64,000 nt of DNA from Eledone cirrhosa (lineage: Eukaryota): the NCBI GenBank assembly GCA_964016885.1, contig CAXHJY010000503.1:29290-93289 (forward strand), given 5' to 3'. Positions 1,607 to 58,501 of the stretch are shown in pieces. How positions within the stretch are numbered: position 1 is the stretch's first letter; every line of letters starts with the position of its first letter. Position numbers and translations under genes: made by a program. The notes beneath the pieces were generated by a model. The model was not told the origin of the DNA. It ran no database searches and was given only the letters and a program-made list of their open reading frames with translations.

Positions 1607-1660
<54 letters not shown>

Positions 1661-1664
<4 letters not shown>

Positions 1665-1862
1665 AAAAGGTATGACTCCGACGGCAGAGCTCAAGCCGTG
1701 GCGACGGCTATTTCTGGGTTATTTGGGTCCAGAAATAGCCGTCGAAACGGCTTGAGCTCTGCCGTCGGGGTCATACCTTTTCCTATTACCCACTCTACTA
1801 CCCTAAGTATTGGGTACTCTGGTGCGTTATGGTCCACCTGGTTCCTTACCACAATTCATTCG

Positions 1863-1908: not shown

Positions 1909-2909
1909 ATATACATACATTTTAGTAAGTAAGTTAATTTTTATAATTTTCTTATTTTACGTCTTTCATATAATTGTTCTGCATCCCCTTGCATTGAACC
2001 ACAAAGTTACTAAGACAAAACCTATATATTTGCTAGCGTAGGTATGCATCTGTATATATATGTTGGTAGATATACTAATTCTTTATAATTATCTCCAAAT
2101 TATTTTGTTGAGCAAACATTTGCCAAAACTGCTACTATAGTTCATAGTAATAGTTCGGCTACTGTCTTCTTAACACCCCACTCCTCACTGATTAACCTCG
2201 ATGTCACGTGATTGATTCTTTTGAATTTGCCACCGACCAAGTAGGCAGGGATTTTTTCAATGTCTTGGAATTTAGTCCACGCTTGCTTTTTTCCATCCAC
2301 TGAATTGTTTTGTATAAGTTCCCTGTGTCCACGCATCGCCTGGGAACTTAGCTGAGAATAGACTCCCTGATGACGAAAGGCCTTCTCCATGCGTTCCATT
2401 CGGAAACCATGTTTATTCTCTTTCAGAAACTAATTAGTTGGAGTCAAATTTTAGTAAGTAAGTTAATTTTTATAATTTTCTTATTTTACGTCTTTCATAT
2501 ACATACATATATATATTCATATATACATACCTGCGCATATATATGCATTAATACACATACACACAGGGGGCATGGGAAGAGTCCTTAGGAGGTCGCATAG
2601 AATACCTTGCGGTATATGGTTTGGAACTCTGTGAACTATGATCAAGTCACGCGGAGATCAATTTTATCTTTAATTCTACAGCGGCCAAGAAATAAAATAC
2701 CAATCACATATTGGTTGATTCTGTATACTCCCAGAGTCGGCTACGTTCTACACAGAAGAGGGCACGTAGTACATCTCTCTGCAGAAATGGATAACCTTTC
2801 AGCTATGTACCACAGTATTCTTATATTAAAAAAATTGATATGCTACTTGAAATGTCCAAGAACGGACTAATGTGCAGCACAACCTGGAATGGAAATAAAG
2901 ATACAAAGA

Positions 2910-2967
<58 letters not shown>

Positions 2968-2973
<6 letters not shown>

Positions 2974-3085
2974 TTGGTTCCTTTACCGGTTTCGCAGTTC
3001 TTCTGCTTTTCAAAAGTAGAGTTGAGATGGAGGGTCTGTGGTTTTTCTCACATCAGAAGAACTGCGAAACCGGTAAAGGAACCAA

Positions 3086-3092
<7 letters not shown>
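2968..3092. mobile_element. Fold-back hammerhead element family C in (TA)n
   Basis: Inverted arms (TTTATTTGGTTCCTTTACCGGTTTCGCAGTTCTTCTG and its reverse complement at 3054-3090) between long (TA)n tracts. Confidence 0.7.
2981..3016 (-). ncRNA. Minimal hammerhead ribozyme with U3-A8 core variant (family C)
   Basis: Minus strand reads CTT TTGAAAA GCAG-AAGAA-CTGC GAAA CCGG TA AAG: stem I CTT/AAG, 4-bp stem II, palindromic stem III ACCGGT, GUA triplet. Confidence 0.7.
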
Positions 3093-3173
<81 letters not shown>

Positions 3174-11215: not shown

Positions 11216-11258
11216 GCTTCGCTGAAGAGATCTACTATGATCGAAACATGTTCGCAGC
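11216..11258 (+). ncRNA. Minimal type I hammerhead ribozyme
   Basis: GCTTCG CTGAAGA GATC-TACTAT-GATC GAAA CATG TT CGCAGC: stem I 5 of 6 pairs, perfect 4-bp stem II, palindromic stem III ACATGT, GUU triplet. Confidence 0.7.
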
Positions 11259-14370: not shown

Positions 14371-14457
14371 ATACTCTACTATCTCAACTATCGTGTATTC
14401 TGTTGAATAAAAGTCTTAGTTTAAAACTGGTTCAATCCTTTTATATATATATATATA

Positions 14458-14647
14458 TAGGAAAATGTATGACCCCGACGGCAGAGCTCAAGCCGTTTCG
14501 ACGGCCACTTCTGTCCAGAAATAGCCGTCGAAACGGCTTGAGCTCTGCCGTCGGGGTCATACATTTTCCTATTACCCACTCTACTACCCTAAGTATTGAG
14601 TACTCTGGTGCGTTATGGTCCATCTGGTTCCTTACCACAACTCCTTC

Positions 14648-16070: not shown

Positions 16071-16168
<98 letters not shown>

Positions 16169-16200
16169 TTTAATGTATAATAAACAATACAGTATAATTA

Positions 16201-16268
16201 CCTCATTACCAGAGGTTTCCCGAATAAGACGAATACAAGAAACGTCCGCATTCGTTCGTCAGACAAGG
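16201..16268 (-). ncRNA. Type I hammerhead ribozyme, inverted identical copy
   Basis: Exact reverse complement of 16303-16370. Confidence 0.85.
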
Positions 16269-16302
16269 AGATTTTTCAAATATTTCACTATGTTTTAAAT
16301 TC

Positions 16303-16370
16303 CCTTGTCTGACGAACGAATGCGGACGTTTCTTGTATTCGTCTTATTCGGGAAACCTCTGGTAATGAGG
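16303..16370 (+). ncRNA. Type I hammerhead ribozyme (complete fold)
   Basis: Stem I CCTTGT/ATGAGG; core CTGACGA; stem II CGAAT..GACG/CGTC..ATTCG; GAAA; stem III ACC-TCT-GGT; cleavage triplet GUA (cut after 16364). Confidence 0.85.
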
Positions 16371-16471
16371 TAATTATACTGTATTGTTTATTATACATTA
16401 AATATTTAGCTCTGTAACTTACATAGAGCACTCTTCATTACACTAACTTTTTCAATTTTCAACGGAAACTT

Positions 16472-16515
<44 letters not shown>

Positions 16516-16520
<5 letters not shown>

Positions 16521-16668
16521 TGTTACTCTGGTGTTTCGTATGTTTATCACAAGATCATCAGACAAGAACAAGAGTTCTTGTCTGATGATTCTTAATAAAA
16601 TGAATATTAAAACTCTATTTCGGTATTGAGTACTCTTTTCTCTCACCCATCAACCGCTTGCGGATATA
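16516..16668. mobile_element. Fold-back hammerhead element family E between (TA)n tracts
   Basis: The shared tail TTCGGTATTGAGTACTCTTTTCTCT..CAACCGC..GGATATA and the inverted hammerhead part recur at ~9931, ~34422 and ~37531. Confidence 0.7.
16518..16567 (-). ncRNA. Type I hammerhead ribozyme (family E)
   Basis: Minus strand reads TCTTGT CTGATGA TCTTGT-GATAA-ACATAC GAAA CAC-CA-GAG TA ACAAGA, with a perfect 6-bp stem I. Sibling copies restore stem II (C[C/T]TGT/ACAGG) and stem III (CTC/GAG). Confidence 0.75.
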
Positions 16669-23745: not shown

Positions 23746-24010
23746 AGTAAAATATATATTTAACAGTAAACACAGCGATTCCTTTGTAACGCCCAACATA
23801 TCTTTTTTGAAGTAAATATCGGATTTATAATATATTTGAAAAGACACGTGCTTTTTCTAAAAGAAATGAATTATTTTCTGTTCCTTCCTCTTCTCACTCT
23901 CTATTTCTATTTCCTCTTTTATTTTTCATATCTTCTGATGAAAGACTAGTGTTCGAAACGTAAACACTCTTTTTCTGCTACATCAAGCGTTAAACTAGTG
24001 TATTTCTTCG

Positions 24011-48646: not shown

Positions 48647-48995
48647 GTGAGGTTTTCTTTTACAAAATGAAAAATAACCTAGGTGTCCTACACGAGTGAA
48701 AGTATAAGGAAAAAAGATGAAATTGAAAATGCAACTGGAGTCTTATTTTTAATAAAATATATATATGTATTTGGTTCCTTTACCGGTTTCGCAGTTCTTC
48801 TGCTTTTCAATAGTAGAGTTGAGATGAAGGGTCTGTGGTTTTTCTCACATCTGGGAGAAAAACCACAAACCCTTCATCTCAACTCTACTATTGAAAAGCA
48901 GAAGAACTGCGAAACCGGTAAAGGAACCAAATAAATATATATATTTTATTAAAAATAAGACTCCAGTTGCATTTTCGATTTCATCTTTTTTCCTT

Positions 48996-48998
<3 letters not shown>
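48640..48998. mobile_element. Family C long fold-back with two hammerheads
   Basis: Inverted arms of ~145 bp (~48703-48847 and ~48855-48998). The + hammerhead is at 48888-48923 and the - hammerhead at ~48778-48813. The tail matches 17541-17668. Confidence 0.75.
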
Positions 48999-58263: not shown

Positions 58264-58349
58264 TAAGTTATTCCGGGTTGAATCGGAGGTAACCACAGAA
58301 AGTAAGGTACTCAATACATAGCAGAGTATAAAAGTTTTAATATAGATGA

Positions 58350-58398
58350 GATTCTACAGGACTAGAACTGTTTCATTCTTTAGAAATCATCAGGAATC
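58350..58398 (-). ncRNA. Type I hammerhead ribozyme (family A)
   Basis: Minus strand reads GATTC CTGATGA TTTC-TAAA-GAAT GAAA CAG-TTCTAGTC-CTG TA GAATC: stem I 5 bp, stem II TTC/GAA, stem III ACAG/CTGT, GUA triplet. Confidence 0.8.
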
Positions 58399-58399
58399 A

Positions 58400-58448
58400 G
58401 ATTCTTGATGATTTCTAAAGAAGGAAACAGTTCTAGTCCTGTAGCATC
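58400..58448 (+). ncRNA. Hammerhead ribozyme, inverted copy with substitutions (family A)
   Basis: GATTC TTGATGA TTTC-TAAA-GAAG GAAA CAG-TTCTAGTC-CTG TA GCATC, with a C3>T core change and one stem I mismatch. Confidence 0.65.
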
Positions 58449-58453
58449 TCATC

Positions 58454-58501
<48 letters not shown>

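What the first reader, a model, noticed from the sequence alone, without database searches (positions are those of the whole stretch)
16167..16404. Complete hammerhead duplicated as a perfect 102-bp palindrome
Seen: all core nucleotides (CUGACGA, GAAA, GUA), a 6-bp stem I with two G-U pairs, an extended stem II and a stem III with a 3-nt loop. The two arms are identical, which suggests a recent event. Inference: this is the best candidate for an active ribozyme. A transcript through both arms would form long dsRNA that masks the fold, so the palindrome may silence itself.
Basis: partly seen in the sequence, partly recalled or inferred. Interest (0 to 1): 0.75.

Follow-up and report, generated by a model that had tools for sequence, protein, structure and literature searches.

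The report
Penelope retroelement stub, mirrored hammerhead
The mirror-image ribozyme sequence is really there, but it is an ordinary footprint of a very abundant Penelope-type jumping gene (two truncated end pieces joined head to head in a TA repeat), and this copy's ribozyme is predicted to misfold rather than cut.

Summary
Confirmed: 102-bp perfect inverted repeat (16167-16268/16303-16404, 34-nt spacer) carrying a type I hammerhead motif on each strand. It is the 3' end of a repeat family with over 1,500 exact 22-mer hits; long relatives lead into a 719-aa telomerase-like RT plus C-terminal GIY-YIG frame with the Hydra-clade Penelope motifs. At least 28 other loci have the same tight palindrome; typically one arm carries a ~72-nt tail, the other not. 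The 'best active ribozyme' reading fails: pair 10.1-11.1 is A-G, stem III has 3 bp, and the hammerhead fold lies 7.7-8.9 kcal/mol above the ensemble (family median 4.9; intact-frame sisters 1.2-1.4). Identical arms do not date it: the unpaired parts carry five private changes. Hairpin masking is sound thermodynamics but a by-product. Side results: palindrome joints pile up at the 5' foot of stem I (32 of 40 arm ends) and, more weakly, at the predicted cut site in two families (21 of 72, P about 0.001-0.004); the commonest lineage has a U4C core. The scan noted such palindromes before in other genomes.

The parts
16117..16164 (.). (TA)n target microsatellite, left flank
   Evidence: family ends abut (TA)n in most loci
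16167..16268 (-). inverted, 5'-truncated copy of the element's 3' end, without tail; outer end at the family's short end (equivalent to about 16404)
16201..16268 (-). hammerhead motif of the inverted arm (core 16262-16256, predicted cut 16207|16206); outer stem I lost at the joint; predicted misfold (7.7 kcal/mol above ensemble)
16266..16268 (+). AGG shared by both copies: 3-nt microhomology at the head-to-head joint, no extra bases
   Evidence: family sequence continues upstream of 16266 in other copies (table 7, 83)
16266..16476 (+). forward 5'-truncated copy of the element's 3' end (spacer + arm + tail)
   Evidence: 95-97% identical to the 39 other scored loci; contiguous with RT-EN frame in L033
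16303..16370 (+). type I hammerhead motif: stem I 16303-08/16365-70, core 16309-15, A-G at 10.1-11.1, stem II 16317-/-16350, GAAA 16352-55, stem III 3 bp + UCU, predicted cut 16364|16365; private C16302 breaks the family's 11-bp stem I and lets UUCCC pair with GGGAA; predicted misfold (8.9 kcal/mol)
16405..16476 (+). ~72-nt tail present on one arm only; a related sequence lies just upstream of the frame in full-length sisters; four private changes here
16478..16514 (.). (TA)n target microsatellite, right flank

Best explanation
This is a 5'-truncated insertion of a Hydra-clade Penelope-like retroelement in a (TA)n repeat: two end pieces joined head to head, likely made when the element's reverse transcriptase extended both cut target ends on the element's RNA, and its hammerhead is a passenger that is predicted not to fold here. 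Shown: family membership, the RT-EN frame of long relatives, (TA)n flanks, one arm with tail and one without, AGG overlap at the joint. Inferred: the endonuclease cut both strands in (TA)n; one 3' end primed cDNA at the far end of the tail (about 16476), the other at the near site (about 16404); both cDNAs stopped early, annealed through AGG/CCT and were filled in, which makes the arms mirror copies of one RNA sequence. Any transcript across the locus meets the antisense arm first, in either direction, so a 102-bp hairpin would win; even a lone arm prefers rival helices.
For: Family: 2337 first-look candidates, 40 scored, 95-100%; exact 22-mer hits 312 + 389 + 893 for three variants. Inverted arm in 13 of 30 best loci, window included (two pairs look like segmental duplicates); 40 pattern hits = 28 loci with a tight palindrome, control 0. 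L033 joins this 3' end to RT-EN coding DNA. [quoted passage not shown] One-tail rule: 20 of 23 and 32 of 36 short palindromes. Either arm can be the longer one (L114, L116), which needs two primings on RNA rather than one cDNA copying itself. Arms share the C/T variant at 16379 in 29 of 30 loci. PMC11167929 shows a Penelope protein cutting and extending both strands from two internal RNA sites that bound the tail, and not needing hammerhead cleavage. Folding.
Against: The two-primer route is inferred from DNA footprints and from a different clade's in vitro data; PMC3846280 proposes self-priming on an antisense template instead. The rule has exceptions (3 of 23, 4 of 36). Pfam and PDB sequence searches gave nothing for the frame; GIY-YIG rests on motifs and one homologue's Pfam hit. 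Tail (72 nt) and element length (about 3.6 kb) exceed the 30-40 bp and <3 kb given for known elements. Nearest-neighbour energies ignore Mg2+, tertiary contacts and protein help, and the PAc ribozyme cuts only with protein, so 'does not fold' is a prediction. The locus's own joint was not bridged by independent reads.
Confidence: 0.85

Rival explanations
1. An active, recently duplicated ribozyme whose palindrome works as a self-silencing RNA switch.
For: Core complete; stems covary between subfamilies; hairpin -184 kcal/mol; Hydra-clade hammerheads with U-U at 10.1-11.1 are listed as canonical and U-U versions can cleave.
Against: Fold 7.7-8.9 kcal/mol above ensemble versus 1.2-1.4 in intact-frame sisters; 3-bp stem III needs a dimer and such ribozymes cut slowly; the layout recurs at dozens of loci with arbitrary spacers; nothing links it to a gene or promoter here.
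Confidence: 0.04
2. Same element, but the inversion arose by fold-back (self-priming) of one nucleic-acid strand, as proposed for rotifer Penelope, not by two target-primed events.
For: Many joints are near-symmetric and centred on self-complementary AATT; PMC3846280 argues for self-priming.
Against: The tail-less arm is often the longer one and can hold the whole frame, so it cannot be a copy of the tailed cDNA; the outer ends follow two fixed sites; zero-loop palindromes fit two annealing ends better than a hairpin.
Confidence: 0.12
3. The arms are identical because they were corrected against each other after insertion (hairpin or cruciform repair), on top of the insertion route above.
For: 0 private changes in 204 paired bases versus 5 in about 106 unpaired bases; the four identical-arm loci have spacers of 6-76 nt, none of the seven with spacers of 289 nt or more.
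Against: Three of the five changes sit within 6 nt and may be one event; the window was picked for perfection; short-spacer loci were selected by exact patterns; most short-spacer loci do differ.
Confidence: 0.25
4. Assembly artefact (inverted chimeric read).
For: No independent record bridged this joint.
Against: An artefact would not stop at the family's short end, lack the tail and abut (TA)n as sister loci do; raw reads of another sample show family copies ending at 16405 on (TA)n (85 reads).
Confidence: 0.02

Closest known systems
Hydra-clade Penelope-like elements (Craig et al. 2021, PMC8557442; seen: passages, sections 11 and 15, supplement part 2 and search hits), incl. Hydra-1_Obim and Penelope-13_HM
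   Same: RT + C-terminal GIY-YIG, RWK, DKT, CxCx5C, CxxC/CxH, (TA)n targets, 3' hammerhead, inverted 5'-truncated copy, tail at one end; unpaired opposition next to the core also in listed Hydra hammerheads (mostly U-U)
   Different: A different family from Hydra-1_Obim (other hammerhead sequence; window motifs not found in it); about 1.2-kb 3' UTR, 72-nt tail, A-G at 10.1-11.1, long bulged stem II, thousands of copies
PAc Poseidon element of Anolis (Frangieh et al. 2024, PMC11167929; seen: parts 1-2 of 4)
   Same: two RT start sites bounding a tail, AT-rich targets, both strands extended, hammerhead dispensable in vitro
   Different: other clade; hammerhead overlaps the start codon there; inverted products and joint positions were not analysed in the parts read
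Minimal/dimeric type I hammerheads of metazoan PLEs (Cervera and de la Pena 2014, PMC4209133; seen: parts 1-2 of 4)
   Same: short palindromic stem III, long stem II, opposite-strand pairs 100-700 bp apart reported, most copies solitary truncations
   Different: consensus there has an extra base then G10.1-C11.1; here N-N opposition then C-G; stem III strand ACCUCUGGU gives a dimer helix with three central mismatches (-5.1 kcal/mol)
Non-LTR retrozymes (bioRxiv 10.64898/2026.07.22.740005; seen: part 1 of 5)
   Same: type I hammerhead repeats related to PLE ends
   Different: retrozymes are head-to-tail tandems; this is head-to-head and linked to a coding element

Membership tests
Hydra-clade PLE | single frame, telomerase-like RT with C-terminal GIY-YIG | tested here: met
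   in long relatives, not in the window; homologue P0002 hits PF01541
Hydra-clade PLE | RWK, DKT, CxCx5C linker, CxxC and CxH, no CCHH in the nuclease core | tested here: met
   (L113-L115)
Hydra-clade PLE | (TA)n insertion | tested here: met
Hydra-clade PLE | hammerhead near the 3' end; inverted 5' copy; tail at one end | tested here: met
Hydra-clade PLE | generally under 3 kb | tested here: not met
   full-length sisters about 3.6 kb; a tendency in the paper, not a diagnostic
Hydra-clade PLE | placement in an RT tree with published Hydra proteins | not tested
   published proteins were only read in the supplement and compared by eye
Type I hammerhead ribozyme | core C3-A9, G12-A14, A15.1-U16.1, H17 and three stems | tested here: met
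Type I hammerhead ribozyme | paired 10.1-11.1 (usually G-C) | tested here: not met
   A-G here, C-A in sister family C; PMC3088659 rejected such hits unless activity was measured
Type I hammerhead ribozyme | active fold is accessible | tested here: not met
   prediction only: P about 6e-7, 7.7-8.9 kcal/mol above ensemble
Type I hammerhead ribozyme | self-cleavage after H17 | not testable with these tools
   needs an assay
Non-LTR retrozyme | head-to-tail tandem units each with a hammerhead | tested here: not met
   no tandem array here; head-to-head

The most novel reading that the evidence does not exclude
The head-to-head joints of these elements are a fossil map of the RNA template: they pile up at the 5' foot of hammerhead stem I and at the predicted cut site in two separate families, so Penelope hammerheads do fold and cut the RNA that is being reverse-transcribed in the germ line, with cleaved RNA giving the shortest palindromes, while the most successful lineage spread with a weakened U4C core. 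That would be genomic evidence of in vivo cleavage, which RNA-seq of a Poseidon element did not show.
Probability: 0.3. Interest if true: 0.55.

Novelty: new member of a known kind. Interest (0 to 1): 0.24.

Why it matters
The locus itself matters little: it is one of many stubs of a known retroelement clade and a poor choice for a cleavage assay. The family is useful: thousands of young copies, open 719-aa frames, and three core or fold variants (U4 well folded, U4 misfolded, U4C) make the open question of what Penelope hammerheads are for testable by counting joint positions per lineage, and offer a Hydra-clade protein for in vitro work on how inverted insertions form.

Tried and rejected
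Rfam at gathering score: 0 hits. Pfam, PDB sequence and profile searches of the frame: nothing significant; the Atlas could not read it. No RNA holder listed: says nothing on expression. Reads and contigs laid twice did not bridge this joint; read ends at AATT in the RAD run look like restriction sites and were ignored. A source copy carrying the window's tail changes: none, 1 match = itself. Cut-site excess among copies joined straight to (TA)n: not seen, about 3 of 28 loci by eye in the first 100 of 128 rows, four palindromic loci set aside. A first idea that the frame was Naiad or Neptune was dropped on motifs and domain order. Lunse et al. 2017 on dimeric PLE hammerheads is not held; seen only as cited in PMC6765202; it may bear on the 10.1-11.1 mismatch. 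PMC13282606 (passages) has no mention of hammerheads or palindromes. No paper on joints at hammerhead landmarks came up in searches; subscription papers and bioRxiv supplements were not searchable.

Full report
Observation. The inverted repeat is exact: 16167-16268 and 16303-16404, 102 bp, no mismatch, 34-nt spacer. Each arm reads, on its own strand, as a type I hammerhead: CUGACGA, GAAA, GUA, a 6-bp stem I with two G-U pairs, a bulged stem II, a 3-bp stem III with loop UCU. Position 10.1-11.1 is A-G. (TA)n lies on both sides. The window holds several other palindromic repeats in (TA)n.

Family. The forward piece 16275-16478 has 2337 first-look candidates in the 3.0-Gb genome; the 40 scored are 95-100% alike. 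Exact 22-mers give 312, 389 and 893 hits for three variants, controls 0. Copies share the 3' end and stop at different places upstream. L033 runs from this end into coding DNA with YRDD and a nuclease region. A search with that region found 149 scored matches, several with open frames near 700 aa; four of eight fetched have 719-aa frames and an 81-85% similar 3' end. Three checked carry RWK, DKT, YRDD, CxCx5C, a GIY-YIG-like core without cysteines, CxxC and CxH, the Hydra-clade diagnostics in PMC8557442 section 11. A model from 116 sequences (pLDDT 93.8) matches telomerase RTs best. Pfam and PDB sequence searches were blank. The host looks like an octopus from this similarity and from recalled repeats; that was not tested.

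The palindrome is the family's habit. 13 of the 30 best loci, the window included, have an inverted arm within 1.5 kb (L007/L025 and L023/L026 look like duplicates). A narrow exact pattern finds 28 loci with the two hammerheads within 30 nt (40 hits). The outer ends are fixed: the inverted arm usually starts at the equivalent of about 16400-16408, the other arm ends at about 16476, each on (TA)n; raw reads of another sample show the short end joined to (TA)n (85 reads). Exactly one arm has the tail in 20 of 23 short palindromes of this family (5 of 28 loci not parsed) and 32 of 36 of a sister family. Either arm can reach further inward; in L114 and L116 the tail-less arm holds the whole frame and the tailed arm is the inverted piece. 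Inverted 5' copies and a one-sided tail are described for Penelope elements, and opposite-strand hammerhead pairs in PMC4209133.

Mechanism (inferred). PMC11167929 shows a Poseidon protein cutting AT-rich DNA, extending both strands and starting at two internal RNA sites that bound the tail. Applied here: left target end primed at the short site, right end at the tail end; the two cDNAs stopped at 16303 and 16266, annealed by AGG and were filled in. Both arms share the C/T variant at 16379 in 29 of 30 loci, as expected for one source. Self-priming is the printed rival; it does not readily give a longer tail-less arm.

Is it the best ribozyme? The motif is real at family level: stem I U-G becomes C-G and stem II G-U becomes G-C in the intact-frame sister, and a distant sister has different stems around the same core, with C-A at 10.1-11.1; published Hydra hammerheads often have U-U there. 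But this copy is predicted to misfold: the hammerhead fold holds about 6e-7 of the ensemble of 16295-16380; it lies 8.9 (+ arm) and 7.7 (- arm) kcal/mol above the ensemble, against a median of 4.9 for 53 family arms (12 of 65 left out for a broken core helix), 1.2-1.4 for 5 intact-frame arms and 1.1 for 22 of 27 sister arms. Causes: C at 16323 favours a rival stem, and the private C16302 breaks the 11-bp stem I and lets UUCCC bind GGGAA. These energies omit Mg2+, tertiary contacts and protein. Short stem III hammerheads of PLEs cut poorly and as dimers; the two copies here cannot pair as a dimer in one transcript. Across both arms the hairpin is -184 kcal/mol, and the antisense arm is made first in either direction.

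Age. Identical arms occur in 4 of 27 comparable palindromes, mean about 4 differences (the sample is biased toward young copies). The window differs from the common letters at five private sites, all outside the arms, and its tail variant is unique in the genome. So it is not shown to be recent; chance plus selection for perfection, or arm-to-arm repair, remain open.

Side result: where joints fall. In the 20 fetched tight palindromes, 32 of 40 arm ends lie at 16296-16300, the 5' foot of stem I. I then tested the predicted cut site. Arm ends within -2..+1 of it: 9 of 20 (one search set), 9 of 38 (one search set; one locus shared) and 21 of 72 in the sister family (one search set, 36 of 37 matches parsed); simulated nulls that keep asymmetry, extra bases and microhomology give means 2.4-3.5, 4.1-4.5 and 9.2-11.8, P 0.0007-0.002, 0.02-0.04 and 0.001-0.004. 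Against: the sister peak is at -2, not +1, and is a hump; a second excess at +11..+13 appears in this family; copies joined straight to (TA)n show no excess (about 3 of 28 by eye); RT stalling at a folded junction would look alike; RNA-seq of PAc had no ends at its cut site. Also, the commonest lineage has a U4C core (893 hits; 17 of 23 arms beside nuclease frames), a change reported to lower activity strongly yet allow viroid infection.

Verdict. Real, explained, ordinary at this locus: a new family of a known clade. Earlier scan notes describe such palindromes, the short/long end rule and the front-edge cluster in other genomes. Interest rests on the family-wide side results.

Noticed in passing
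window 16518-16589: A second, unrelated type I hammerhead on the - strand (stem I UCUUGU/ACAAGA, core 16561-16555, damaged stem II) with a 16-bp inverted repeat centred at the 5' side of its stem I; likely another Penelope-type stub in the same (TA)n.
   Followed up: partly
genome-wide; e.g. L069, L073, L076-L078, L081-L086, L117, L118: The most numerous lineage of this family has CCGAYGA (U4C) in the core: 893 exact hits versus 389 and 312 for the U4 variants.
   Followed up: partly
L037-L066; family position 16296-16300: Strong hot spot of head-to-head joints at the AATT that forms the 5' foot of stem I, 32 of 40 arm ends.
   Followed up: yes
L125, L129, L133, L136, L143, L144; L149-L184: Palindromes whose two arms both stop at the predicted cut site, two of them perfect.
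   Followed up: yes
L113-L116 (G000 C28, C5, C1): Full-length elements with 719-aa open frames; 67588 first-look candidates for the nuclease region suggest a very large Hydra-clade expansion.
   Followed up: partly
window 1660-1786, 2913-3146, 14457-14572, 48703-48998, 58340-58458: Other palindromic repeats beside (TA)n, at least two families recurring in the window; likely inverted stubs of other elements.
   Followed up: no
window 2367-2440 (+), 11222-11246 (+), 23935-23958 (+), 24871-24848 (-), 49954-49927 (-): Further hammerhead-like cores; four of five regions queried match repeats in other loci.
   Followed up: partly
L021, L053, L056, L104, L118 and others: Several short hammerheads with U-U at 10.1-11.1 and 4-nt palindromic stem III (CTAG, GTAC) in the fetched flanks.
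   Followed up: no
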